A program made the position numbers and the translations under genes. Shown here one piece after another: positions 15,432 through 27,287 of a DNA stretch of 64,000 nt; the stretch's first letter is position 1, and every line of letters begins with the position of its first letter. This DNA comes from Candidatus Hebobacterum abditum (GTDB lineage: Bacteria; Armatimonadota; Hebobacteria; Hebobacterales; Hebobacteraceae). The notes under the pieces are model-generated. The model saw nothing but the letters and a program-made list of their open reading frames with translations. It did no database searches and had not been told where the DNA came from. The stretch lies in assembly GCA_029821875.1 (NCBI GenBank), contig JALGXW010000008.1, positions 108,713 through 172,712 of the forward strand, written 5' to 3'.

Positions 15432-17480
15432 TCACCCGCTCTTCTCGATGATCCACACGCCGCGGCCGGGAAGCTCGGCCGGGCCGGACATCTGCTCCCC
15501 GCTCAGCAGCTCGCGGCCGGCCACCGGCGTGAGGTCAACCTGCACCGGCTCGGCGTTGTGGTTGAGGACAAAGGTGAGCGTCTTGCCGCCGTTCGTCCGC
15601 TGAGTCACCTCGACGCCGTCGATCGGCGCGAGGACCGGCTCGATGCCATGTTCCGCGCAGAGGTGGCCCATCAACCCCTCGACGAACTTCGTCTCGGGGT
15701 CGGTGGCGATGTACCAGGCCGCGCCCTTCCCGAAGCGGTTGCGCGTGACCGCGGGCATACCAGCGTAGAAGTCCTTCCCGAACGCGGCGACGGCCTCGGC
15801 CGTCTCCGCATGGATGAGCCCATGCAGCATCCCGCACTCGTAGCTCCCCTGGAGGTCGCCGAGCGCGCTCGCCATGACGATCTCGTTCTTCAGCTCCGGC
15901 GGCACCGCGTCGAACTCCTCCGCCCAGATGCCGAGCATCTTCCGCAGCGGCCCCGGGTAGCCGCCCAGCACGGCGCGGTCGTTCTCATCCACCATGCCGC
16001 TGTACACCGTCGTCACGAACGTCCCGCCCGATTCCACGAACTTCTCGATCTTCTCCGCGAACCCGGGCTGCACCAGGTAGAGGAGCGGCGCGATAGCGAT
16101 CTTGTACTTGCTGAGGTCGAAGCTGGGATGAACGAAGTCCACCGGGACGCCCGCCCGCCAGAGGGCGCCGTAGTACGAGTGGATCAGCGGCACGTACTTC
16201 AGGTCCTGGCTCGGGCCGCTGGAGTACTCGACCGCCCACCAGTTCTCCCAGTCGAAGACCATCGCGACCTCGGCCTCGATGCGGCCGTCGAGCACGTCCG
16301 ATCCGAGCTCTTTCAGCTCCTTGCCCAGCTCGGCCGACTCGCGGAACACGCGGGTGTTCTCGTGTCCGGCGTGGGAGATGACGGCCCCGTGCCACTTCTC
16401 GCACGCGCCCTGAGACCGGCGGAGCTGGAAGTACATGATCGCGTCCGAGCCGTGGGCCATCGCCTGATAGCTCCACAGCCGCAGCACGCCGGGGCGCTTG
16501 AGGGAGTTGTAGGCCTGCCAGTTCTGCTGGCTCGGAGTCTGCTCCATGAGCATAAACGGCTGCCCCTCCTTCAGTCCGCGCATGAGGTCGTGCAGAAGTG
16601 CGACATTCCACGGCTTCACCTGCATCGGCGGATAGCTGTCCCAGGAGATGACGTCGAGGTGCGGCGCCCAGGCGAAGTAGTCGAGCGGCTTGAAGTGCCC
16701 CATCAGGTTGGTCGTGACCGGGACGTCGGGGGTGATCTCCTTGAGCGCATCCCGCTCGAGCAGATAGCATTCGAGGATGCTGTCGGACATGAAGCGCGAG
16801 TAGTCGAGCGAGATGCCCTGAAAGGCCGTCCGCGTTTGATCGTACGCCGACAGATGCTCCGACAGTGTGTTCGGCGGGACGATCTCCTCCCAGTCGTAGA
16901 AGGTGTGCCCCCAGAAGCGCGTGCACCAGCGCTCGTTGACCTCATCCAAGCTCCCGTACCGCTTCTGCAGCCACGCGCGGAAGGCGGCCGCGCAGTTCTC
17001 GCAGTAGCAGGCGCCGCCGAACTCGTTCGAGACGTGCCAGATGACGAGCGAGGGATGGCTCTTATAGCGGGTGGCCAGCGCCTTCGCCATCTCGCGGGCG
17101 TAGTGCCGATAGGTAGGGCTGTTGGGGCAGGAGTTGTGGCGGGCGCCGTACTGGCGCTTGCGGCCGTGGAAGTCAACGCGCAGCACATCGGGATGGCGCC
17201 GCGCCATCCAGGCCGGATGGGCGGCAGTTGAGGTGGCCATGCAGGCGTAGACACCGTTCTTCACGAGCAGGTCGAGGATCTCATCGAGCCACTCGAAGTC
17301 GTAGTGGGTTTCATCAGGCTGAAGGTGGGCCCAACTGAACACGGGGAGGGTCGCGATGTCGATGTTGGCCAGCTTGAAGAGCCGGACGTCTTCGTCCCAG
17401 ATATCCCGCGGCCATTGGTCCGGGTTGTAGTCGCCTCCGTAGAACACCTTTGGAAGCTTCGGGCTGATCACTTCGCTCAC
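15432..17480 (-). CDS. Glycoside hydrolase family 42 beta-galactosidase (second copy)
   Basis: VFYGGDYNPDQWPRDIWDEDVRLFKLANIDIATLPVFSWAHLQPDE... and WHVSNEFGG match GH42. GTG start. Convergent with araD. Confidence 0.85.
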   Translation of the reverse strand: MSEVISPKLPKVFYGGDYNPDQWPRDIWDEDVRLFKLANIDIATLPVFSWAHLQPDETHYDFEWLDEILDLLVKNGVYACMATSTAAHPAWMARRHPDVLRVDFHGRKRQYGARHNSCPNSPTYRHYAREMAKALATRYKSHPSLVIWHVSNEFGGACYCENCAAAFRAWLQKRYGSLDEVNERWCTRFWGHTFYDWEEIVPPNTLSEHLSAYDQTRTAFQGISLDYSRFMSDSILECYLLERDALKEITPDVPVTTNLMGHFKPLDYFAWAPHLDVISWDSYPPMQVKPWNVALLHDLMRGLKEGQPFMLMEQTPSQQNWQAYNSLKRPGVLRLWSYQAMAHGSDAIMYFQLRRSQGACEKWHGAVISHAGHENTRVFRESAELGKELKELGSDVLDGRIEAEVAMVFDWENWWAVEYSSGPSQDLKYVPLIHSYYGALWRAGVPVDFVHPSFDLSKYKIAIAPLLYLVQPGFAEKIEKFVESGGTFVTTVYSGMVDENDRAVLGGYPGPLRKMLGIWAEEFDAVPPELKNEIVMASALGDLQGSYECGMLHGLIHAETAEAVAAFGKDFYAGMPAVTRNRFGKGAAWYIATDPETKFVEGLMGHLCAEHGIEPVLAPIDGVEVTQRTNGGKTLTFVLNHNAEPVQVDLTPVAGRELLSGEQMSGPAELPGRGVWIIEKSG

Positions 17481-17633
17481 TCCATGAACGCCAGCAGAGA
17501 TTGGGTGCGTCCCGCAGGTTCTTCTGGCTCGGGGCCGCGTACCCCTCCCCGGGACCGTTCTGCGCGGCGAATGGAAACGAAGAGGCAGGAGGCACCCGCC
17601 TGCCCAACGAACAGCGCGGGGCAGAGTGAAGCC

Positions 17634-19130
17634 ATGAGCTTAATGGGCGTCGATATCGGGTCGAGCCGCTGCAAGGCGGTCGTCTTCGCCGCCGACGGGA
17701 GCGTGCTGGCCGAGGCCGCCGAGGACTACGAGCCGCAGTTCCCCGCGCCGGCCCGCGTCGAAATGGACTCGGAGGCGCTCTGGCAGGCCGTGGCCGCAGC
17801 CATCAGGTCGGCCGCCGAGGCGAGCGAGGAGCCGGTCGAGGCCACCGGCCTCAGCAGCCACGGCGAGTCCTTCGTTCCCGTGGACGAAAACGGCAATGCC
17901 CTCGGGCCGGCGATCATGAACGCGGACAACCGGGCATCTGAAGAGGCCGAGTGGTGGGAGAAACAGCTCGGCCGGGAGCACATCTTCCAGACCACCGGCA
18001 TGATCGTCCACCCGATGTACCCGATGCCGAAGCTCCGCTGGCTGCGCACCCATGAGCCGGAGCTGTTCGCCAGGGCGGCCCGCTTCGTCAGCGTCAGCGA
18101 TTATGTCTTGCTCAAGCTCGGCCTCGAGCCGCAGATGGCGTATCCTCTGGCCTGTCGGTTCATGGCCTTCGATGTCCGCACGTTGCGCTGGTCCGACGAG
18201 ATCCTCGCCGCGGCCGAGCTGTCACCGGAGCGGCTCCCTACCCCGGTTCCGGCCGGCACGGCCGCGGGCCGGCTCTCCCGGACGGCCGCGGCCGACCTGG
18301 GGCTTCAGCCCGACGTGCCCGTCGTCGTGGGTGGGCACGACCAGCCGAACGGCGCGCTCGGCATGGGCGCCATCGCGCCGGGAATGGTGACGAACTCGCT
18401 GGGGACATGGGAATGTCTGGTGGCCGTCGCCGACGAGCCGACCCTCGGCGAGACGGCGATGGCCGGCAGCCTCAACTCCTACTGTCACGTCGTGCCCGGT
18501 GCCTACATCACCATCGCCTACTTCCCGGCCGGGATCATGGTGAAGTGGTTCTGCGACACCTTCTGCGGCGAGGACGCGGCCGCCGCGGCCGCGCAGGGCA
18601 CCGGCCTGCACGAGTATCTCGAGGCGGCGGCGCCGGAGGGCCCCACCGGACTGTGCATCACGCCGCATCTTATCGGCACGGCGAATCCCCACTTCGATCC
18701 GCGCGCCACCGGCGTGGTCTTCGGCCTCACCCAGACGACGAGCCGCTATCAACTCTACAAAGGTATCCTCGAGGGCCTTGCGTGCGAGCTCGCCATCGTC
18801 TCCGATCTGCTCGCCGACGCGGTCGGCTCGTTCGACCTCCTGCGGTGCACCGGCGGCGGGGCGCGCTCGCGGCTCGGCCTCCAGCTCAGGGCCTCCATCA
18901 CCGGCCGGTCGATGCAGACATTGACCTGCCCCGAGGCGGTCTGCCTGGGCGTCGCGCTGCTAGCGGGGACGACCGCGGGCGTGTACGACGGCCTCGGCCA
19001 GGCCGTCGAGCAGGCCGTTCGCGTCGCCGACACGATCGCGCCCGACCGCGACGCGGCCGCCGCCTATGCTCGCCAGGTCGAGCAGTACCGCCGCCTCTAT
19101 CCCGCGCTCGCGCCGCTGCGCGAGCTGTGA
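17634..19130 (+). CDS. FGGY family carbohydrate kinase (xylulokinase/L-fuculokinase-like)
   Basis: MSLMGVDIGSSRCKAVVFAADGSVLAEAAEDYEPQFP... with the FGGY N and C domains. The real start is at 17634, not at the upstream ORF start 17304. Confidence 0.75.
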   Translation: MSLMGVDIGSSRCKAVVFAADGSVLAEAAEDYEPQFPAPARVEMDSEALWQAVAAAIRSAAEASEEPVEATGLSSHGESFVPVDENGNALGPAIMNADNRASEEAEWWEKQLGREHIFQTTGMIVHPMYPMPKLRWLRTHEPELFARAARFVSVSDYVLLKLGLEPQMAYPLACRFMAFDVRTLRWSDEILAAAELSPERLPTPVPAGTAAGRLSRTAAADLGLQPDVPVVVGGHDQPNGALGMGAIAPGMVTNSLGTWECLVAVADEPTLGETAMAGSLNSYCHVVPGAYITIAYFPAGIMVKWFCDTFCGEDAAAAAAQGTGLHEYLEAAAPEGPTGLCITPHLIGTANPHFDPRATGVVFGLTQTTSRYQLYKGILEGLACELAIVSDLLADAVGSFDLLRCTGGGARSRLGLQLRASITGRSMQTLTCPEAVCLGVALLAGTTAGVYDGLGQAVEQAVRVADTIAPDRDAAAAYARQVEQYRRLYPALAPLREL

Positions 19131-19146
19131 GGGACGGGATCATCGC

Positions 19147-20082
19147 ATGAGCGCCGGCGCCGATAGCAAGGGCCTCGCAGATCTCCCCCTCGCCGAGATC
19201 ATGCGGCGGGCCTACCAGCGTCACGTCCTCGTGCCCGCCTTCAACATCGCCTACTTGCCTCAGGTCGAGCCGATCGCGCAGACGTTGAAGGAGCTGGACT
19301 GCTTCGCCTTGCTGGAGGTGGCGCGGCCGGACATCGAGCGCTTTGAGGCCACGGGCTACGCGGCCGTGGCCTGGGAGTACGAGAGGCAGGCCGATCCGGC
19401 CTACGTCCGTCTTCACCAGGACCATGTCCCCGTGATCGACGAGGAACAGAGGGAGGTGGACTGGCGGCCGCTGATCCAAGAGGCGCTCGACCTGGGCTAC
19501 GATTCGGTCATGCTCGACGGCTCGCGGCTGCCACTGGAGGACAACATCGCGGCCACCAAGTCAGTCGTCGAGATGGCGCACCCACAGGCCGCGGTGGAGG
19601 GCGAGTTGGGTGCGGTGCTCGGGCACGAGCCCGGCCCGCTGCCGCCCTATGAGGAGCTGTTCCACAGCGGGCGGGGCTTCACCGATGTGGAGGAGGCCGA
19701 TCGCTTCGTGCGGGAGACCGGGGCGGACTGGCTCTCCGTCGCCGTCGGTAACGTCCACGGCGCCATCAGCGGCGCCGCGAAGGACCGGGAGAAGGTGCAG
19801 GCGCGGCTGAACATCGAGCACCTGCGGGGGATCTCCGACCGAGTCGGCGTGCCGCTCGTGCTGCACGGTGGCACGGGCATTGAGTTGAGCTGCGTGCTGG
19901 AGGCCGTGGAGAACGGCATCACCAAGATCAACATCGCCACCGCCATCCGGCAGCCCTACGAGGCGCGCCTGCGGGAGGGCGCGGGCGTGGAATCGGCGCA
20001 GCAGGCCGTCGCCGCGGTCGTCGCGCAGCACATCGAGGACTACCGCATCGCCGGAAGCGCGGCGAGGCTGGCGGCCCCCTAG
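19147..20082 (+). CDS. Class II fructose-/tagatose-bisphosphate aldolase family protein
   Basis: HVLVPAFNIAYLPQVEPI..., DGSRLPLEDNIAATKSVVEMAH..., LVLHGGTGI... are hallmarks of class II (metal-dependent) ketose-bisphosphate aldolases. It probably forms an operon with the FGGY kinase. Confidence 0.75.
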   Translation: MSAGADSKGLADLPLAEIMRRAYQRHVLVPAFNIAYLPQVEPIAQTLKELDCFALLEVARPDIERFEATGYAAVAWEYERQADPAYVRLHQDHVPVIDEEQREVDWRPLIQEALDLGYDSVMLDGSRLPLEDNIAATKSVVEMAHPQAAVEGELGAVLGHEPGPLPPYEELFHSGRGFTDVEEADRFVRETGADWLSVAVGNVHGAISGAAKDREKVQARLNIEHLRGISDRVGVPLVLHGGTGIELSCVLEAVENGITKINIATAIRQPYEARLREGAGVESAQQAVAAVVAQHIEDYRIAGSAARLAAP

Positions 20083-20187
20083 ACACCGTCTCGTGGCTGT
20101 CCGGAGCAATGCTCTGCGCCGGTCTTGTCCCTCAAGAACGGCCCCAGTCGTGATGTTATGCAAACAGATGATCCTCAGGGATTTCCA

Positions 20188-20223
20188 CAGTCTGCCGGGC
20201 GATAGTGATCGCCCGGCAGACTG
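20188..20223. promoter_or_regulatory. Perfect 16-bp inverted repeat CAGTCTGCCGGGCGAT-AGTG-ATCGCCCGGCAGACTG
   Basis: Seen directly, 105 nt after the aldolase stop. No T-tract. It may be a terminator or a protein-binding palindrome at the left edge of the low-GC island. Confidence 0.5.
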
Positions 20224-20836
20224 GCAATCAGGCATGTCAGTGGACCTCCCAGGCTCCGCTGCGGCAGAGAACCGCTTCCATTCAGAACGAACCGAGCCGA
20301 CTTCGTGTCTGCCCACCGTACAACGTGACCCTTGCTCTTTCCGAAGCCCCGTGATGGCATAATACGGGCGATATGCTCAGTCATCGAGCCGTGCTCCGAG
20401 GGGGGGCTCTCGGGCGCCCACAGACCAGAGCGGAGGTCAGGCATGACGGCTGGCGGGTCCTGTTGTAACTCTCGCTTTCGCGCTCCAAGTGTGCGTTCCT
20501 CCTGCCGCAGCCCCAGCAGCAACGTCCGGTACCACCCAGCGTAGCCCCCGGTGTAGCGCCTGACTATTGGCATACTTTCCCGGTGTTTCTCCCGTGGTAT
20601 CTGAGCCAGGAGAGAGCAGAGAACGGGCCATGGGTCTTGTGCCCGCCTGTACCGAGGCTTGCATGCGGACGTTGGCTTCGTGCGGGGCCGATGGGTCGCG
20701 GCGCTGCTGTGCCTGGCCCCTTCTCTGCCGCGCGGCCGGAGGTCAGGGAGGAGAGAAGATTGGCGACACGGTCTCTCTGCGGTCTTCTTTCTCCGCAGTA
20801 GGTGTGCAATGGATCAAATGGCATGGAGGTGAAGTG

Positions 20837-21064
20837 ATGCGCGTATCAGATGTGACGTTGGGACAGATCATCAAGAAGCAGTTCGGCGAGGAGAACGGTG
20901 CGGAAATGCTTCGGGAACTGCAAGCGGCAGTTGACAAGAAGCTCCCGGCGGACCAACTAAGGGCGGAGGCAACTGCTCTCGCAAAGAAGCATCTGCCAGC
21001 AACGGCCTCGAGTGACACGGATGTGGTTAGTGGCGTATCCCGTATGCTCTTGGTAGCCGCATGA
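20837..21064 (+). CDS. Small ORF (75 aa) immediately upstream of the B12-radical SAM gene; possible precursor or partner peptide
   Basis: ATG at 20837 preceded by GGAGGTGAAG. Its codon usage (GC3 ~60%) matches the adjacent radical SAM gene and not the host (GC3 ~90%). It has no Cys. The same frame is open upstream back to an ATG at 20630, which would add a 7-Cys N-terminal region. Confidence 0.35.
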   Translation: MRVSDVTLGQIIKKQFGEENGAEMLRELQAAVDKKLPADQLRAEATALAKKHLPATASSDTDVVSGVSRMLLVAA

Positions 21065-21170
21065 TCGTGACATAGCTCTGCCGAGCGCTCATGAAGTGGC
21101 GGCCGCAGAGAGACCGCCTGCCACACAGACCAGCCGCCGTGGCCTCAGCCACGGCGCGAGGAAGCCGACG

Positions 21171-23411
21171 ATGAAACGGACGAAGACGCGAAGCGATATG
21201 GTGTTTGTCCTCCCGCCTTCGGATAAGTTTGCGCCACTTCCCAACAGAGGAGTGCTCGCCGACGCCCTCGGGTCAGGCTACATCATTGCGTTTCTGAGAG
21301 AGAACGGCTTCGAGGCGGAGCAGATACTGTCAGCCAAGCCACTAAATGTCTCCCAATGCGTCAGCCACATCATGGCCAGGCGGCCGAGGGTCGTTGGGTT
21401 CACAGTCTACCAGACCAACTACAGTCTGTGCTTGCTCCTTGCGAGAGAACTCAGAGAAGTTGCTCCAGATCTGACCATCGTGTTTGGGGGGCCAACTCCG
21501 AGCGTGCAGTCCGAGACGATCTTGGCAAGGAACGACTGCGTCGATGTCTGCGTGAGAAACGAAGGTGAAGAAACGACTCTTGAGCTTCTGCGCGCCCTTG
21601 AGAGCGCCAACTTCCGCCTGGAAGAGGCAGATCTATCACCCATCAAGGGTCTGACCTACAGGAGCGGAAACGAGGTGCAGGTGAATGAGGCTCGGCATAT
21701 CTACCTCAACAACAGGAGCACGCCGGGTTTCCTCGACCGCTATCCATCGCCTTATCTGACGGGGGTGTTCCACAATTCCGAGCCGGGCGTCGTAACGGCG
21801 AGGGGATGCAACCAGAATTGCACGTACTGCAGCTGCGCTGTTCTTTCGGGGCGCGCCTTCGTCACCCATTCCATCGAACGGGTCGTCGAAGAGCTGGACT
21901 CCATTGCCGGGATTATGGGCGACCGGGATGAACTCGTGATCGTATATGATGATGCCTTCACCCTATTGCCAGCAAGGGCGCGCTCAATATGCCAGAAGCT
22001 GATTGAGAGCAACGTCGACGTGCGCCTAGGATGTATCACCAGGTGTGACAGGGTTGATGAGGAGTTGCTGGACTTGATGAAGGAGGCCGGCTTTGTCTCC
22101 GTCGGATTCGCGCTCGAAAGCGCCACGCCTCGGGTCTTGCGGAACATAGGGAAGGTCACTCGGCCCGATTCCTCGACTGATCCTACGTTCCAGGCGGAGG
22201 AATCGTTCATCGAGGCCTTCAAGAGAAACCTTCAACACACCAGGAGAATCGGCCTGCATGTGTACGCGAGCGTGATGGTCGGATTGCCGGGCGAGAGCGA
22301 GGAAGAGGGCCAAGCGACCATAGATCTCATAGAATCGCTCGAGGTCCCCCAGTATTCACACAACGTGCTCCAGATCTTCCCTGGGACGCCGCTGTGCCAC
22401 GACCACCGAAGGTATGGCATCAGAACGGAGGTTGCTGCTGACGGGATCACGCTCACTACCAGGCATGCCTATGATCCCTACAAGCTGGGGCACGCGCCCA
22501 ACTCAAACCATGAGCAATGGATCAAGGGTCACCAGAGGTACGACACGAAGGCGTTGTCGCTGTCATTGGAGCCAAGGGGCGGCGCGGTCTTCTTCAACAA
22601 TCTCGTCCTCTCGTCCGATAGCTGGGACGAGGCACTCCCTGAGTGGCTGGAGAAGTACCTTTCGGTCAACGGGAGAGTCATCCAAGTGTTCAGCAGTCTG
22701 AGCTCGGCATCGGACTGGTGGTCTCGGCCGGAAGTGTCGAAGAGCCCCACGAAAGGCTTCGCAGATCTGCCGACAGGATCGTACGGGCCGTACTACAAGA
22801 CTGCGACCGAGGATGGAACTCCCTGCATTCGCCCCTGCGCTGCCCACGTCTGGGGATTGCGGTGCGAGTACCCAGTGTACTTCGTCGATTCGAAGAGACT
22901 GCCCTTGTTGAACGGCGAGGACGTGACTTCCTTGAACAGTGTGTTCGTCGAAGAGGAGAAGACAGACGCGAACACCTTGTTCGGTCTGCTGATGGAGCTT
23001 TCGAAGACAGAGACCCAGGAGGGCATTTCCGGATTGCCTGCGATTCCCTACTTGCGGGGCTTGTGCAGATGGGATACGCAGCCTCCCAATTGCGTCAGTC
23101 TCGAAACAGTGATAGTCGACGCCGAGGCCAATGTCAGGCCGTGTTGGCACGCCGAGCCCATCGGCAAGGTTGGCATGCCTTTCGACGAACTGCGCCAAAA
23201 CCTCCGTCGTTTACGCGGCAGGGCCGAAGAGGAGCGCGGGTGCAGGACCTGCGGGGAAAACGACACCTGCGTCAAATGTCCCTCGCCCGCTCCCCTATCG
23301 GACGAGGAGTACTGCAGACTGAGGGCCGGATATCCAGTCGAAGAGGCCGCTTCCACAGCCAGGAACCTGAAGATACTGGAAGAGTCTTTCCTGCCGTATA
23401 CGATGCTCTAG
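21171..23411 (+). CDS. B12-binding domain radical SAM protein with a long Cys-rich C-terminal (SPASM/twitch-like) extension
   Basis: The N-terminal cobalamin-binding Rossmann-like region (VVGFTVYQTNYSLCLLLARELREVAPDLTIVFGGPTPS) is followed by the radical SAM motif CNQNCTYC (CX3CX2C). A ~300-aa tail carries about 10 Cys including CRTCGENDTCVKC (CX2CX5CX2C). RBS GAGGAAG. Low GC relative to flanks. Confidence 0.75.
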   Translation: MKRTKTRSDMVFVLPPSDKFAPLPNRGVLADALGSGYIIAFLRENGFEAEQILSAKPLNVSQCVSHIMARRPRVVGFTVYQTNYSLCLLLARELREVAPDLTIVFGGPTPSVQSETILARNDCVDVCVRNEGEETTLELLRALESANFRLEEADLSPIKGLTYRSGNEVQVNEARHIYLNNRSTPGFLDRYPSPYLTGVFHNSEPGVVTARGCNQNCTYCSCAVLSGRAFVTHSIERVVEELDSIAGIMGDRDELVIVYDDAFTLLPARARSICQKLIESNVDVRLGCITRCDRVDEELLDLMKEAGFVSVGFALESATPRVLRNIGKVTRPDSSTDPTFQAEESFIEAFKRNLQHTRRIGLHVYASVMVGLPGESEEEGQATIDLIESLEVPQYSHNVLQIFPGTPLCHDHRRYGIRTEVAADGITLTTRHAYDPYKLGHAPNSNHEQWIKGHQRYDTKALSLSLEPRGGAVFFNNLVLSSDSWDEALPEWLEKYLSVNGRVIQVFSSLSSASDWWSRPEVSKSPTKGFADLPTGSYGPYYKTATEDGTPCIRPCAAHVWGLRCEYPVYFVDSKRLPLLNGEDVTSLNSVFVEEEKTDANTLFGLLMELSKTETQEGISGLPAIPYLRGLCRWDTQPPNCVSLETVIVDAEANVRPCWHAEPIGKVGMPFDELRQNLRRLRGRAEEERGCRTCGENDTCVKCPSPAPLSDEEYCRLRAGYPVEEAASTARNLKILEESFLPYTML

Positions 23412-23464
23412 GGAACGGAGCGGACCATAGGCAGCGTCACCTGATGGCAGGCCCCGGTTGACGG

Positions 23465-23489
23465 AAGCTGCGCTTGTCAGGCAGCTTCG
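23465..23489. terminator. Bidirectional hairpin GAAGCTGC-N9-GCAGCTTC between the convergent radical SAM and GH4 genes
   Basis: Seen directly in the 135-bp convergent intergenic region. Confidence 0.4.
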
Positions 23490-23546
23490 GGACACCGGGA
23501 GAAGCGCTAGCCGCGAACGCGCTCGCTGTCTAGTGCCGAAGCCGCG

Positions 23547-24992
23547 CTACGACGCCCACGCCTTGCGCACTTCCTCCACTGACTTCTCGGGGACGCGGAC
23601 GCCGTCGTAGTCTCGCGGCGGAATGCGGTCGGGTGAGGCGAGGCGCTTCTTCGCGTCGGCGATGGTCTGCTTGTACTGCGGCAGCAGCGCCTCCTGGGCG
23701 ACGAGCATCTCGTCCACCATCTGCCAGATCTCCGGCGGATTGCAGACCGCGGCCGTGAGCGGGTCCATCATCATCGCCTGGCGCAGCAGCATGTCGTCGC
23801 CCTGCACCGCCGCCTCCACGGCCAGCCGCTGTACGGTGACGCTCGCATTGCACACGGCCGCGCAGCCCATGGGCAGGTCGCCGACCTGGGGGATGTTCAT
23901 CCCGTTCGCGTCCACGTATCCGGGCACCTCGACGATGCAGTCGGCCGGGAGATTCGTGATGCAGTTGTTGTTCACCACATTGAAGTGACCCCGGTAGACG
24001 CGGCCGGTCTCCAGCCCCTCCATGATGTACGAGCCGTGCTCGCCGCCGCGGTCCTCCGGGGTGAAGGTCCAGGGATCGGCCTCCATCCACTTCGGGAAGT
24101 CGGTCTCGAACCAGTTGCGGCCCTCCCGGCACGCCCGTAGGTAGCCGCCCGTCTCGCCACCCATCCAGTAGCTCAGGTCGATCCAGTTCTTCAGGTCATC
24201 CAGGCGCTTGCGGTACCAGGGCAGGTATTCGCTGAGGTGGCCGTTGGACTCGGTGCTGTAGTAGCCGAAGCGGCGCAGCATGTCGATGCGGACCTTCTCC
24301 GACCTGCTCAGGCCCGGGTCTTTCTCGAAGGCTTCGAGGATCTTGCCGGTGAGGTCCTCGCCCTTGTGCTTGACGCTGATGTACCAGGTCTGGTGGTTGA
24401 TGCCCGCGCAGATGATGTCCACCTCTTCCTTCGGCAGGCCGAGCGCCTTCGCGATCTGCCCGTGGCCGCCCTGCACGCCGTGGCACAACCCCACGCAGCG
24501 GACCCCGCCGTACGTGTTGGCGGCCCAGGTGTTCATGGCGTTCGGGTTCGCGTAGTTGAGGAACCAGGCGTCGGGCGCGGCCACCTCGCGGATGTCCTTG
24601 CAGAAGTCGACGATCACCGGGATATTGCGCTGCCCGTACATGATCCCGCCGGGCGCGAGGGTGTCGCCGACACATTGATCCACCCCGTACTTCAACGGGA
24701 TGTCGATGTCGGTCTGGAATCCCTCCAGACCGCCGACCCGGACCACTGAGAAGACATACTTCGCGCCCGTGAGCGCCTCCCGGCGGTCGGTCGTGGCGGT
24801 GATCTTCGCCGGCAACCCGGCCGCCTCGATGTCGCGGCTGCACAGCTTGTACACCATGTCGAGGTTGCGCTCGTTGATGTCGGTGAACGCAAACTCTGTG
24901 TCCCTCAACTCAGGCACGCAGAGGATGTCGCGCACGATCTCCCGCGTGAAGCCGATGCTTCCCGCGCCGATGAAGGCTGCCTTAAGCGCCAT
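23547..24992 (-). CDS. Glycoside hydrolase family 4 (NAD+/Mn2+-dependent alpha-glucosidase/alpha-galactosidase-like)
   Basis: MALKAAFIGAGSIGFTR... (NAD-binding GxGS), catalytic Cys region GLCHGV and 481 aa length are typical of GH4. RBS GAGGAGG. Confidence 0.8.
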   Translation of the reverse strand: MALKAAFIGAGSIGFTREIVRDILCVPELRDTEFAFTDINERNLDMVYKLCSRDIEAAGLPAKITATTDRREALTGAKYVFSVVRVGGLEGFQTDIDIPLKYGVDQCVGDTLAPGGIMYGQRNIPVIVDFCKDIREVAAPDAWFLNYANPNAMNTWAANTYGGVRCVGLCHGVQGGHGQIAKALGLPKEEVDIICAGINHQTWYISVKHKGEDLTGKILEAFEKDPGLSRSEKVRIDMLRRFGYYSTESNGHLSEYLPWYRKRLDDLKNWIDLSYWMGGETGGYLRACREGRNWFETDFPKWMEADPWTFTPEDRGGEHGSYIMEGLETGRVYRGHFNVVNNNCITNLPADCIVEVPGYVDANGMNIPQVGDLPMGCAAVCNASVTVQRLAVEAAVQGDDMLLRQAMMMDPLTAAVCNPPEIWQMVDEMLVAQEALLPQYKQTIADAKKRLASPDRIPPRDYDGVRVPEKSVEEVRKAWAS

Positions 24993-25034
24993 AACTACCT
25001 CCTCAGGTTCTTTGCAGAAGACGCGCCGGGCGGC

Positions 25035-26468
25035 TCAATCGCCCGGCGTGGGCGGCGACGGCATTTCCACATCGAGCGACTTGCAGGCGTTCTCGAAGAT
25101 GCGGTCGAGCTCCTTCTGAGTGGCCGCGTCGATCTGATACTCGTAGCTCTCGATCGCCTCCCGGGCCTTGTCCAAGGCGAGCTGCTCGACGGTCGGCTCT
25201 CCCGCCGACCGCCACCGCCCGACATTGTCCCGGCGGAAGAGCGGCGAATCGAAGAAGTCCGGCAGCGCTTCGAGCGTAGTCGGATGGGTGAGGAAGTTCC
25301 CTTCCGGCACTCCCTCGGCCACGACCTTCGCTATCTCTTCTGCCGTGCCGCTCCACTTCATCCCATCGAGGATGTGCTGCACGTAGCGGCCGATCTCCAT
25401 GTCGATGATGAACTGCGCGGGGCTGAACACCTCGTCCATCGACAGCTGCCCGGCCCCCATGAAGAAGTGCCTGAACCCGGCCAGGCCGAGCATCAGCAGG
25501 TAGGCCGTGCGGTCGACCGCCGCCAGGGCGTCGGCGCGCTTGGCATTGGTGTCGAGGTATATCCAGTCGAGGCGGTAACCGGCGAAGTGCTCGCCGAGGT
25601 CCTGCAGGAGCTTCTGGATCATGACGTTCTCCGGCAGGCTGTAGGCCACGGTCAGGTCGCGCATGTCGCCGAAGTCCACTCGGATGGGAAGAAGCTGATC
25701 CGGGTACGTCAGCCCAAGGCGGTCGGCCACGATCCAGCCGGCCAGGCTCTCCGCGAGGCTCTGCGCCAGCAGGCCGGGCGCGGTGAGCGGCGCCGTCATC
25801 CCGCCCGTCGGAATGGGGCAGATGCTCGCACCAATGTCCAGCAGCGGATCGTCCTTGAACTTCCAGAACAGGTCGAGGGCAACGTAGTCGAGCGTCAGCG
25901 GGCTGATGACGAACTGAAATCCTACCTCGTAGCGCCTCCCGGCGGCCGCGTGGAGCTCGCCAATCCATCGTATCACGTCTGGCTCGTGGGTCACCATGGC
26001 CCCGCCGAGCCCGGCCGTCGTCTCCAGGCAGGCCTTCTCGAGCCACAGCACCTGGACGCGGTCGTCCACATCGTTGGGGTAGACTGGGGGCGGCCCCTCG
26101 TCGTCGAAACTGGCGACCAGCTTCAACATCTCGATCGCATCGGCCGCGGTAGAGGCGCGCACCTCATTCGTCTGCATGTCGATGATGTTGAAACAGGTCC
26201 AGGGCCCCGTGACCCTGATCCTCTCCTCCGGCTTCCGCTTGCGGCCGGCCGCCCGCAGCTTCTCGATCTCCGCCTCGACCACCTCCGGCGCGAACTTGAG
26301 CCGGCCGTCCGAGTAGCTGACGCCCTCCTCCGCGCTCACCGCGTCCGCGGTCGGCTCGTGCTTGCAGGCGATGCCGACATCGGCCAGGATCCGCAACACC
26401 GCGCCGTGGACCGTCTGGGTGTGATCGGCGCCGAGACCGCCGGACAACGAGAACTGTAGTCGCTCCAT
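25035..26468 (-). CDS. MttB-superfamily (trimethylamine/quaternary-amine methyltransferase-like) protein, non-pyrrolysine type
   Basis: About 478 aa TIM-barrel protein with the MttB-like architecture. There is no in-frame amber codon. No corrinoid-protein partner is present in the window. Start taken as ATG 26468 (GGAGG 6 nt upstream); a GTG at 26474 is also possible. Confidence 0.45.
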   Translation of the reverse strand: MERLQFSLSGGLGADHTQTVHGAVLRILADVGIACKHEPTADAVSAEEGVSYSDGRLKFAPEVVEAEIEKLRAAGRKRKPEERIRVTGPWTCFNIIDMQTNEVRASTAADAIEMLKLVASFDDEGPPPVYPNDVDDRVQVLWLEKACLETTAGLGGAMVTHEPDVIRWIGELHAAAGRRYEVGFQFVISPLTLDYVALDLFWKFKDDPLLDIGASICPIPTGGMTAPLTAPGLLAQSLAESLAGWIVADRLGLTYPDQLLPIRVDFGDMRDLTVAYSLPENVMIQKLLQDLGEHFAGYRLDWIYLDTNAKRADALAAVDRTAYLLMLGLAGFRHFFMGAGQLSMDEVFSPAQFIIDMEIGRYVQHILDGMKWSGTAEEIAKVVAEGVPEGNFLTHPTTLEALPDFFDSPLFRRDNVGRWRSAGEPTVEQLALDKAREAIESYEYQIDAATQKELDRIFENACKSLDVEMPSPPTPGD

Positions 26469-26684
26469 TAGCACCTCCGCCGACGCCCCTGTCGCCGTTC
26501 TCTCTACACTTGTGTTCTATTTGCGCAGCCAGCCAGTGTCACCTCTCCGGGGCTCGTCCGGCGCCGTCGGGGAGGACCCGTCGTCGCGTGAGGCTGTGGC
26601 AGACAGGAGGTGACAGCCTTCGCTTCCGGCCTGGCCGCCGCTTCGGCAGTGCAACTACTGAGGCAACGGGGCCGCGGGTCGCTC

Positions 26685-27287
26685 TCAGTCTCGGACGGTC
26701 GCGAGGTGGCGAGTGTCGTTGCGGCGGAGGATGCGGAAGGTGGAGCCAGATCCCTCCAGCTCCCAGATGCCGGTGTGGCTAATCGCGAGATCCTTCCCCA
26801 GAGAGGAGAGCATGTGGGGACAGAGCGTCGTGAGGATCACGTTGTTCGTGACACCGTGGGCGACGATGGCGATGTCGCCCACCTCCCGATCGCCGATATG
26901 GCGGGCGACCACGGGCCGGACTCGCACGGCGACCTCGTCCAGGCTCTCTCCCTCAGGAAGGCAGACATGGGTGCGGCCCTCCCGCCACTCGCCCTCGACT
27001 CGCTCCCACTCTCGCTGCTCCTCGTGTCCCCATCGCCAGAGCGTCCCCATCTCGATCTCCTTCAGCTCCGGCTCCACGACGAGGGGCGCGCCGACGGCCG
27101 CCGCGAGCGGCCGCGCCGTCTCCGCGGCCCGCTTCATCGCGGAGCAGAGGACGCGCTCCAGCGCGGAGTCTCTCAGGGCCTCGGCGAGACACGCCGCCTG
27201 CGCTCGGCCGGTCGCGCTCAGCGGCGGATCGCCACCCCAGTCGGGGCGAGGGTCGGGCTCGGCATGGCGGATGAGGAGCAGTCGCAT
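26685..27287 (-). CDS. Histidine phosphatase (phosphoglycerate mutase-like) family protein
   Basis: N-terminal LLLIRHAEPD (RHG-type motif) and AIVAHG later in the protein. 200 aa. RBS GGGGGAAG. Confidence 0.7.
   Translation of the reverse strand: MRLLLIRHAEPDPRPDWGGDPPLSATGRAQAACLAEALRDSALERVLCSAMKRAAETARPLAAAVGAPLVVEPELKEIEMGTLWRWGHEEQREWERVEGEWREGRTHVCLPEGESLDEVAVRVRPVVARHIGDREVGDIAIVAHGVTNNVILTTLCPHMLSSLGKDLAISHTGIWELEGSGSTFRILRRNDTRHLATVRD

What the first reader, a model, noticed from the sequence alone, without database searches (positions are those of the whole stretch)
20100..23500. Low-GC island with a B12-binding radical SAM / SPASM-like enzyme and an adjacent small ORF: candidate peptide-modification (RiPP-like) cassette
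The segment between the aldolase gene and the GH4 gene has visibly lower GC and GC3 (about 60% vs about 90% in flanking genes). It is bounded on the left by a perfect 16-bp palindrome (20188-20223) and on the right by a hairpin. It contains only two genes. One is a 746-aa protein combining a cobalamin-binding domain, a CX3CX2C radical SAM core and a ~300-aa C-terminal tail with ~10 Cys including CX2CX5CX2C (auxiliary Fe-S cluster, SPASM/twitch-like). The other is a 75-codon ORF immediately upstream with a canonical RBS and the same atypical codon usage. B12-rSAM enzymes and SPASM-domain rSAM enzymes are each established RiPP tailoring enzymes; a fusion of both next to a small ORF is unusual. 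No protease or transporter is present, so this may be a minimal or partial cluster, or the small ORF may be a partner protein rather than a substrate.
Basis: partly seen in the sequence, partly recalled or inferred. Interest (0 to 1): 0.7.

Follow-up and report, generated by a model that had tools for sequence, protein, structure and literature searches.

The report
Inserted peptide plus B12 radical-SAM maturase
A 3.45-kb inserted island carries a small peptide gene and a large B12/radical-SAM enzyme with extra iron-sulfur sites; this gene pair recurs across bacteria and Asgard archaea, I found no description of it, and it most likely makes a chemically modified peptide.

Summary
Window 20088-23538 is a real insertion. 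Related contigs (89-91% nt identity in the flanks) join the aldolase and GH4 stop codons with 26 nt instead of 3,451 nt. GC3 is 0.62 (small ORF) and 0.73 (enzyme), against 0.86-0.93 in the flanking genes.

The island holds only a 75-aa ORF (20837-21064) and a 746-aa enzyme (21171-23411). The enzyme has a B12-binding domain, a CX3CX2C radical-SAM core and a C-terminal module with 8 invariant Cys. That module's best fold matches are all SPASM/twitch enzymes.

A homologous small ORF lies 39-301 nt upstream, on the same strand, of 63 of about 75 family members from Aminicenantes, Bacteroidales, unclassified bacteria and Asgard archaea. It lies upstream of 0 of 16 distant B12-rSAMs that match only the N-terminal region. 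The peptides share a conserved N-terminal helical "leader" and a variable, hydrophobic C-terminal tail.

No Pfam or NCBIfam model covers the peptide, no model reaches its cut-off on the enzyme, and I found no paper describing the pair.

Best reading: a minimal RiPP-type precursor and maturase pair of an uncharacterised family. The chemistry is unproven; C-methylation and/or epimerisation of aliphatic residues is most plausible.

The parts
20088..23538 (.). Inserted island (3,451 bp) between the convergent stop codons of the class-II aldolase and GH4 genes
   Evidence: Related contigs L104/L105 align at 89-93% identity up to window 20087 and again from 23539, with 26 nt in between. Lower GC and GC3. 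No target-site duplication and no integrase or transposase seen.
20188..20223 (.). Perfect 16-nt inverted repeat with a 4-nt loop, 106 nt after the aldolase stop and inside the island
   Evidence: I2, 100% complementary. No T-run follows it and it does not recur in the window. Its role as a terminator or insulator is inferred.
20224..20824 (.). About 600 nt with no detectable gene or RNA family upstream of the peptide gene; presumed promoter or 5' region, unexplained
   Evidence: No frame-specific GC signal. The 132-aa minus-strand ORF has no Pfam/NCBIfam hit. No Rfam hit. No sigma-70-like site. No similarity to the other loci.
20825..20829 (+). GGAGG ribosome-binding site, 7 nt before ATG 20837 (4 nt before the in-frame GTG 20834)
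   Evidence: Read directly from the sequence.
20837..21064 (+). 75-aa candidate precursor peptide: MRVSDVTLGQIIKKQFGEENGAEMLRELQAAVDKKLPADQLRAEATALAKKHLPATASSDTDVVSGVSRMLLVAA
   Evidence: 41% identical to the 77-aa ORF upstream of the closest rSAM homologue (L001). Scores 61 bits, E = 7e-17, against the iterated family profile. Codon-position GC pattern is that of a coding region.
20837..20986 (+). Leader-like region (about residues 1-50) with the family motif T-h-x-x-h-h-x-x-x-h-G-x-x-x-(A/G)-x-x-h-h-x-x-h
   Evidence: Lowest column entropy in the 49-peptide alignment. Gly17 is invariant in the 31-sequence alignment A2 and nearly so among the 49 peptides. The boundary is approximate.
20987..21061 (+). 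Variable C-terminal part ending in an aliphatic tail (…DTDVVSGVSRMLLVAA); presumed core
   Evidence: Tails differ between clades but are always hydrophobic. No cleavage site is known; the boundary is inferred.
21171..23411 (+). 746-aa B12-binding / radical-SAM / SPASM-like enzyme (alternative starts: GTG 21096, ATG 21198)
   Evidence: AlphaFold model mean pLDDT 86, pTM 0.88.
21264..21587 (+). Rossmann-type B12-binding domain (residues 32-139)
21792..22331 (+). Radical-SAM core (residues 208-387); cluster motif C213-x3-C217-x2-C220 at 21807-21830
   Evidence: PF04055 at 80.7 bits. The three Cys are invariant in 30 homologues, as are C222, C274 and C292.
22431..23030 (+). Middle alpha/beta domain (about residues 421-620) with no sequence-family match
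23046..23330 (+). SPASM-like module (about residues 626-720): C632-x8-C641-x16-C658 … C691-x2-C694-x5-C700-x2-C703-x11-C715
21676..21724 (+). 49 bp that are deleted in a near-identical contig from another sample, which frameshifts the enzyme there
   Evidence: L106 is otherwise 100% identical over 20001-23600 but lacks these bases, giving ORFs of 179 and 548 aa (P0122/P0124).
23453..23499 (.). Imperfect hairpin (19-nt arms, 79% complementary, 9-nt loop) between the convergent rSAM and GH4 genes
   Evidence: I4. Its role as a terminator is inferred.

Best explanation
Window 20088-23538 is a horizontally acquired, self-contained two-gene module of RiPP type.

The 75-aa product is a precursor. 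Its conserved N-terminal helical part (about 50 aa) acts as the recognition (leader) element. Its short aliphatic C-terminal tail (…VVSGVSRMLLVAA) is the part that is modified.

The 746-aa enzyme cleaves SAM at the C213/C217/C220 [4Fe-4S] cluster to make a 5'-deoxyadenosyl radical, which abstracts hydrogen from unactivated side-chain or C-alpha positions of the tail. The N-terminal cobalamin domain most likely then delivers methyl groups (class-B C-methylation), possibly together with epimerisation. The C-terminal SPASM-like module, with two predicted auxiliary [4Fe-4S] clusters, serves electron transfer and/or peptide binding.

Shown: the island, the domain architecture, the invariant Cys set, and family-wide linkage and co-divergence of peptide and enzyme.

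Inferred: that the peptide is the substrate, that cobalamin and the auxiliary clusters are bound, the type of reaction, and the fate of the product (no peptidase or exporter is encoded here).
For: Island status: presence/absence polymorphism against L104/L105, with both forms found in the same metagenome (3300041085: L060 with the cassette, L105 without). GC3 is 0.62 and 0.73 against 0.86-0.93.

Peptide link: 63 of about 75 family genes have the homologous ORF 39-301 nt upstream, against 0 of 16 distant B12-rSAMs. One to three peptide genes occur per locus, including near-identical copies that differ in the tail (L003: …GIVYGFIVP and …GIVYGFIYP). The N-terminus is conserved and the C-terminus variable. 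Mantel r = 0.52, p = 0.001.

Chemistry lead: the tails are rich in Val/Ile/Ala/Gly/Thr/Pro. Such residues are the substrates of B12-rSAM C-methyltransferases in clavusporins (PMC10849626) and of radical-SAM epimerases (PMC13469106).

Host context: a MttB-family methyltransferase gene lies nearby at 25035-26474. By general knowledge this family works with corrinoid proteins, which weakly suggests the host handles corrinoids.
Against: No RiPP recognition element (PqqD-like) was detected in the enzyme.

No leader peptidase, exporter or immunity gene lies in the island or is recurrent in the bacterial loci.

The SPASM HMM is below threshold.

SPASM enzymes usually form cross-links, yet this window's tail lacks Cys and aromatic residues, so the role of the SPASM module in a methylase is unexplained.

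In Asgard archaea the peptide C-terminus (…HWVTVG) is conserved rather than hypervariable, which is atypical of antimicrobial RiPPs.

A sister contig carries a frameshifted enzyme, so the module may be dispensable.

No expression data exist.
Confidence: 0.7

Rival explanations
1. The small protein is an accessory partner (scaffold, chaperone, specificity or regulatory subunit), not the substrate. The enzyme acts on something else, such as a membrane lipid, a cofactor precursor or another protein, as do the B12-rSAM lipid enzymes GrsA/Gmm or the MCR glutamine methylase.
Against: Multiple tandem peptide genes per enzyme differ mainly in their tails. The conserved-N / variable-C pattern is typical of precursors. 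The lipid family TIGR04072 scores 73 bits against a cut-off of 360, and the MCR methylase TIGR04014 scores 69.5 against 360. No lipid-synthesis genes are recurrent neighbours.
Confidence: 0.15
2. The pair makes a peptide-derived signal or cofactor used inside the producer's own regulatory circuit, not a secreted antimicrobial. In this window only the minimal biosynthetic pair was transferred, without its receptor.
For: In Asgard loci the pair sits in a conserved block: HTH-TPR regulator, Ras/Arf-like GTPase, peptide(s), rSAM, then a TPR_12/TPR_MalT protein. TPR-type proteins occur in 28 of 39 loci, GTPases in 20 of 39 and HTH-TPR proteins in 18 of 39. In Aminicenantes-type loci, large Reg_prop/Y_Y_Y/HisKA/HATPase sensor kinases abut the pair. 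The Asgard peptide C-terminus is conserved (…HWVTVG).
Against: None of these neighbours is present in the window or in its closest relatives L001 and L088. TPR and kinase genes are common, and clustering by shared repeats inflates the counts. There is no experimental link.
Confidence: 0.25
3. In this genome the island is a decaying, functionally silent passenger: intact by chance but not expressed.
For: There is no recognisable promoter in the 750-nt upstream region. A near-identical contig has a 49-bp frameshifting deletion in the enzyme. Related populations lack the island altogether. Codon usage is not adapted to the host.
Against: Both ORFs are intact in the window and in L060, with good ribosome-binding sites. 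All family-invariant residues are retained, including 14 Cys. The promoter scan covers only sigma-70 consensus sites, and the host phylum is unknown.
Confidence: 0.15

Closest known systems
Class-B (cobalamin-dependent) radical-SAM peptide C-methyltransferases: PoyB/C (polytheonamides), MpcB (clavusporins), ApyD (aminopyruvatide), TIGR03975 rSAM_ocin_1
   Same: N-terminal B12-binding Rossmann domain plus a radical-SAM core. The gene is adjacent to a short precursor gene. The target region is rich in aliphatic residues. ApyD is the best NCBIfam hit (122.6 bits). The structural neighbours are CysS, TsrM and TokK.
   Different: All of these models score far below their cut-offs (ApyD 122.6 against 750; rSAM_ocin_1 85.7 against 282). 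By general knowledge none of them carries a C-terminal 8-Cys SPASM-like module, and two recent B12-rSAM reviews do not mention SPASM or auxiliary clusters. MpcB uses CX7CX2C and needs a DUF5825 partner (PMC10849626). The leader here matches no Nif11/NHLP or other known leader model.
SPASM/twitch radical-SAM RiPP maturases (SkfB, CteB, SuiB/StrB, PqqE, TigE, anSME)
   Different: There is no N-terminal PqqD-like RRE; a B12 domain sits there instead. The motif is CX2CX5CX2C rather than CX2CX5CX3C. The HMM score is below threshold. The radical-SAM core belongs to the B12 subgroup, not the SPASM subgroup. An extra alpha/beta domain of about 200 aa separates the core from the SPASM module.
Minimal peptide + radical-SAM cofactor systems (mycofactocin MftA/MftC, PQQ PqqA/PqqE)
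   Same: A small peptide whose C-terminal residues are modified by an adjacent radical-SAM/SPASM enzyme. There is no dedicated exporter. Distribution is broad and context is conserved in some lineages.
   Different: Those systems have a separate RRE protein (MftB, PqqD) and several downstream tailoring genes. Their peptides are shorter with invariant target residues. No sequence relationship was detected.

Membership tests
Class-B cobalamin-dependent radical SAM enzymes | N-terminal Rossmann-type B12-binding domain | tested here: met
Class-B cobalamin-dependent radical SAM enzymes | CX3CX2C cluster motif in a partial TIM barrel | tested here: met
   PF04055 at 80.7 bits. C213/C217/C220 are invariant in 30 homologues.
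Class-B cobalamin-dependent radical SAM enzymes | Cobalamin actually bound and required | not testable with these tools
   Indirect only: a conserved TVY-x-x-N loop aligns with the under-cobalt loop of TokK and OxsB (PMC13331322). AprD4, a close structural neighbour, shows that the fold alone is not proof.
SPASM-domain radical SAM enzymes (TIGR04085 / PF13186) | Match to the SPASM profile above its curated cut-off | tested here: not met
   TIGR04085 scores 18.2 bits (E = 0.0026) against a cut-off of 27. There is no Pfam SPASM hit.
SPASM-domain radical SAM enzymes (TIGR04085 / PF13186) | Seven or eight conserved Cys C-terminal to the core, including a CX2CX5CX3C-type block | tested here: met
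   Eight invariant Cys: C632, C641, C658, C691, C694, C700, C703, C715. The block is CX2CX5CX2C, one residue shorter than canonical.
SPASM-domain radical SAM enzymes (TIGR04085 / PF13186) | SPASM/twitch fold | tested here: met
SPASM-domain radical SAM enzymes (TIGR04085 / PF13186) | Two auxiliary [4Fe-4S] clusters | not testable with these tools
   Needs Fe/S quantitation, EPR or Mössbauer spectroscopy, or a structure.
RiPP biosynthetic cassette | Short precursor gene adjacent to the modifying enzyme and conserved with it | tested here: met
   63 of about 75 family genes have it, against 0 of 16 controls. Co-divergence r = 0.52, p = 0.001.
RiPP biosynthetic cassette | Conserved leader and variable core | tested here: met
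   The N-terminal motif has a near-invariant Gly and low entropy. The C-terminal tails are clade-specific. In Asgard archaea the tail is itself conserved.
RiPP biosynthetic cassette | RiPP recognition element (PqqD-like) in the enzyme or a partner | tested here: not met
   No PqqD or RRE model hit in Pfam/NCBIfam scans of the enzyme. The unassigned middle domain could serve this role; this was not resolved.
RiPP biosynthetic cassette | Leader peptidase and/or exporter | tested here: not met
   None in the island. None is recurrent in bacterial loci. An M3 peptidase lies near the pair in 8 Asgard loci.
RiPP biosynthetic cassette | Post-translationally modified product | not testable with these tools
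   Requires expression and mass spectrometry.
Named B12-rSAM equivalogs (ApyD, PhpK, HpnJ, BchE, KedN5, TIGR04072 lipid, MCR Gln methylase) | Score at or above the curated cut-off | tested here: not met
   The best is ApyD at 122.6 against 750. BchE scores 89.6 against 481, and TIGR04072 scores 73.2 against 360. No DUF4070 hit.
Known leader families (Nif11, NHLP, lanthipeptide leader domain) | Profile match of the small ORF | tested here: not met
   None of the 31 peptides matches any such Pfam/NCBIfam model at E <= 0.1.
Genomic island (horizontal acquisition) | Presence/absence between close relatives plus atypical composition | tested here: met
Genomic island (horizontal acquisition) | Mobility genes, flanking direct repeats or a tRNA target | tested here: not met
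   No integrase or transposase, no target-site duplication, no tRNA. The L001 relative lies next to resolvase and Y1-transposase genes.

The most novel reading that the evidence does not exclude
The pair defines an undescribed, cross-domain (Asgard archaea and Bacteria) class of ribosomal peptides matured by a single enzyme that combines cobalamin, radical-SAM and twin auxiliary-cluster chemistry. It would perform a reaction not yet seen in either parent class. The product would act as a signal read by TPR/GTPase (Asgard) or sensor-kinase (Aminicenantes) partners, rather than as an antibiotic.
Probability: 0.2. Interest if true: 0.85.

Novelty: new variant of a known kind. Interest (0 to 1): 0.66.

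Why it matters
Radical-SAM RiPP maturases are a main source of new peptide chemistry. B12-dependent and SPASM-type enzymes have so far been treated as separate subfamilies. Two recent B12-rSAM reviews I searched do not mention SPASM or auxiliary clusters.

This is a family with hundreds of members (775 hits in a capped search). It fuses both modules and always travels with its own, unannotated peptide family.

The window's copy is the simplest possible test object. It is a clean 3.45-kb, two-gene insertion with known empty-site alleles, so it can be cloned as it stands for co-expression and mass spectrometry.

If the chemistry is new, it adds a RiPP class. If the Asgard link to Ras-like GTPases and TPR proteins is functional, it would bear on peptide signalling in the closest archaeal relatives of eukaryotes.

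Tried and rejected
(1) BchE/DUF4070, HpnJ, PhpK, ApyD, KedN5 and lipid TIGR04072 identities. All scores are far below the curated cut-offs and cover only the N-terminal 420 aa. Rejected as family assignments.

(3) A hidden gene, RNA or mobility remnant in 20083-20836. There is no coding signal, no Pfam/NCBIfam/Rfam hit, no similarity to L001's neighbouring genes or to any other locus, and no repeat elsewhere in the window. It stays unexplained.

(4) Word-indexed protein search with the 75-aa ORF alone found only itself. Homology became visible only through neighbourhoods and profiles.

(5) The exhaustive profile search gave only 42 representatives, because the permitted seed alignment was Asgard-biased. 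Its matches to repeats in long proteins (TPR, EF-hand-like, P0158) look like generic helix-Gly-helix similarity.

(6) A conserved 'antisense ORF' cluster found in 20 loci I interpret as a by-product of the conserved rSAM coding sequence; this was not checked further.

(7) Literature. Seven full-text searches and targeted reading found no description of a B12 + SPASM fusion or of this peptide family. The library is incomplete, so this is absence of evidence only.


Full report
**What is in the sequence**

Between a class-II aldolase gene (ends 20082, + strand) and a GH4 glycosidase gene (23547-24992, - strand) lies a segment of lower GC. GC is 0.57-0.60 there and 0.65-0.73 in the flanks. Codon third-position GC is 0.618 for the small ORF and 0.726 for the large ORF, against 0.856-0.929 for six flanking genes.

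The left end carries a perfect 16-nt inverted repeat with a 4-nt loop (20188-20223). The right end carries an imperfect 19-nt hairpin (23453-23499).

Only two genes are credible:
- A 75-aa ORF at 20837-21064, preceded by GGAGG.
- A 746-aa ORF at 21171-23411.

The 750 nt before the small ORF show no coding periodicity, no protein-family hit and no RNA-family hit.

**It is a true insertion**

Contigs from related organisms (L104, L105) are 89-93% identical in the flanking genes. They lose homology exactly at window 20087 and regain it at 23539. In them the aldolase and GH4 stop codons are 26 nt apart, against 3,451 nt here. The filled and empty alleles occur in the same metagenome: L060 is filled and L105 is empty.

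A third sample holds a contig identical over 20001-23600 apart from a 49-bp deletion (window 21676-21724). The deletion frameshifts the enzyme gene.

There is no integrase, no target-site duplication and no tRNA. How the island arrived is unknown. The closest relative of the cassette (L001) lies beside resolvase and Y1-transposase genes.

**The enzyme**

Pfam finds a B12-binding domain (residues 32-139) and a Radical_SAM domain (208-387). NCBIfam lists 28 B12-rSAM families. ApyD is the best at 122.6 bits against a cut-off of 750. None comes near its cut-off, and all cover only the first 420 residues or so.

The last 326 residues have no Pfam match and only a sub-threshold SPASM hit (18.2 bits against 27). 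In 30 homologues at 36-49% identity, eight C-terminal Cys are invariant: C632, C641, C658, C691, C694, C700, C703 and C715. Their 3 + 4 + 1 order mirrors the eight Cys of anSME as I recall that enzyme's layout (for the window positions).

The loop after strand 3 of the B12 domain (T78-V79-Y80-x-x-N83) is conserved. It aligns with the loop that lies beneath the cobalt in TokK (Trp76) and OxsB (Asn186) (PMC13331322). This is compatible with cobalamin binding but does not prove it.

Three further invariant Cys in the core (C222, C274, C292) are unexplained.

**The small ORF is the key**

A word-indexed search with it found only itself. Neighbourhoods of rSAM homologues showed the relationship.
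- The closest homologue (49% identity) has a 77-aa ORF 60 nt upstream that is 41% identical to the window's peptide.
- An Aminicenantes contig has three tandem enzyme paralogues and three related peptides.

I built a profile from five peptides and iterated it. I searched it against all small ORFs of 103 loci fetched from genomes and metagenomes. It gave 81 hits among 7,351 ORFs, and 75 of them lie directly upstream of a family rSAM gene.

Of about 75 family genes with enough upstream sequence, 63 have the ORF ending 39-301 nt (one at 765 nt) upstream on the same strand. Several of the rest have it elsewhere in the array or behind one intervening gene. None of 16 distant B12-rSAMs that match only the N-terminal region has it.

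Peptide and enzyme distances correlate (Mantel r = 0.52, p = 0.001).

The peptides share an N-terminal motif, T-h-(K/R)-x-h-h-x-x-x-h-G-x-x-x-(A/G)-x-x-h-h-x-x-h, with a near-invariant Gly. They end in short hydrophobic tails that differ by clade:
- A/G/V/S-rich in the window's clade: …VVSGVSRMLLVAA, …AVGATSAASAVAI, …VGVVSAGAVVAAF.
- An acidic patch followed by tails such as GIVYGFIYP in Aminicenantes.
- …SLMGHWVTVG in Asgard archaea.

No Pfam or NCBIfam model matches any of 31 peptides. Public sources call them hypothetical proteins.

**How it most likely works**

A conserved leader, a variable tail, multiple tandem copies and strict linkage to one enzyme together form the signature of a RiPP precursor and maturase pair.

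The enzyme's core places it with class-B methyltransferases. Aliphatic tails are what B12-rSAM C-methyltransferases act on in clavusporins (PMC10849626) and what radical-SAM epimerases act on (PMC13469106). I therefore favour radical C-methylation, possibly with epimerisation, of the tail. The SPASM-like clusters would act in electron transfer or substrate binding.

This chemistry is inference. My confidence that the peptide is the substrate is about 0.7. My confidence in methylation specifically is about 0.35.

**Points against**
- No RRE was detected.
- No peptidase or exporter is present.
- The tail lacks Cys and aromatic residues that would give the SPASM module an obvious cross-linking role.
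- A sister population carries a frameshifted enzyme.

**Comparison with known systems**

It works like a B12-rSAM RiPP tailoring system and like a SPASM maturase, but it is a member of no curated family of either kind (see the membership table).

Two recent reviews of B12-rSAM enzymes contain no mention of SPASM or auxiliary clusters. The ThnL paper notes that its enzyme has no auxiliary cluster. Seven full-text searches found no description of this fusion or of this peptide family. The library is incomplete, so prior description cannot be excluded.

**Context elsewhere**

In Asgard archaea the pair is embedded in a conserved block with an HTH-TPR protein, Ras/Arf-like GTPases and a TPR_MalT-type protein directly downstream. 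An M3 peptidase is nearby in 8 loci. In Aminicenantes-type loci large Reg_prop/Y_Y_Y sensor kinases abut it. None of this is present in the window, where only the minimal pair was inserted among sugar-catabolism genes.

**Verdict**

The finding is real. The cassette belongs to a widespread but apparently uncharacterised family. I rate it a new variant of a known kind (radical-SAM RiPP systems), with interest 0.66.

Noticed in passing
L006-L038, L062 (e.g. L062:1301-12467); Ca. Lokiarchaeum ossiferum CP104013 = L028: In Asgard archaea the peptide-rSAM pair sits in a conserved block. The order is an HTH+TPR protein (~640 aa, opposite strand), a Ras/Arf-like GTPase (~185 aa), 1-2 peptides, the rSAM, and a TPR_12/TPR_MalT protein (~687 aa). 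There is often a second GTPase, and in 8 loci an M3 peptidase.
   Followed up: partly
L068:22-3651, L004:949-5670, L061:12258-16094: In Aminicenantes-type bacteria, very large hybrid sensor kinases lie immediately next to the pair on the same strand. Their domains are Reg_prop/Y_Y_Y propellers, HisKA/HATPase, a receiver domain and SpoIIE or PAS.
   Followed up: partly
L003:2460-13451 (Aminicenantes JABAOF010002602 / WVZO01000533): Three tandem rSAM paralogues with three leader-type peptides share the locus with four Cys-rich peptides; three of the four carry a weak or faint 'Lant_leader_dom' hit, and all share the leader 'KKRLVLNKKTI…GG'. A flavodoxin and a phosphodiesterase are also present. 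This may be a composite multi-RiPP locus.
   Followed up: no
window 21676-21724 (vs L106): A 49-bp deletion in an otherwise identical contig from another sample splits the enzyme into 179-aa and 548-aa ORFs. It is either population-level decay or an assembly artefact.
   Followed up: partly
window 20224-20824: About 600 nt inside the island have no detectable gene, RNA family, promoter consensus or homology to any fetched locus.
   Followed up: yes
window 21171-23411, residues C222, C274, C292 (also C63, C127, C288): These Cys are invariant or nearly invariant, in addition to the SAM-cluster and SPASM-like sets. The motif is CX3CX2CXC. They might form another metal site or be structural.
   Followed up: no
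P0158 (1,316 aa; library protein, not in the window): The leader profile matches five tandem repeats (IDYTDQQIADYIAENYG.VTA.N.Q..V..AVAENVPIEQVARAIGA) in a long repetitive protein. TPR- and EF-hand-like repeat proteins also match weakly. This is probably generic helix-Gly-helix similarity.
   Followed up: partly
window 15432-27287: The insertion site lies in a sugar-catabolism cluster: GH42 beta-galactosidase, FGGY kinase, class-II aldolase, GH4 and a histidine phosphatase. Next to it is a MttB-family methyltransferase, which by general knowledge works with corrinoid proteins and so hints that the host handles corrinoids.
   Followed up: no
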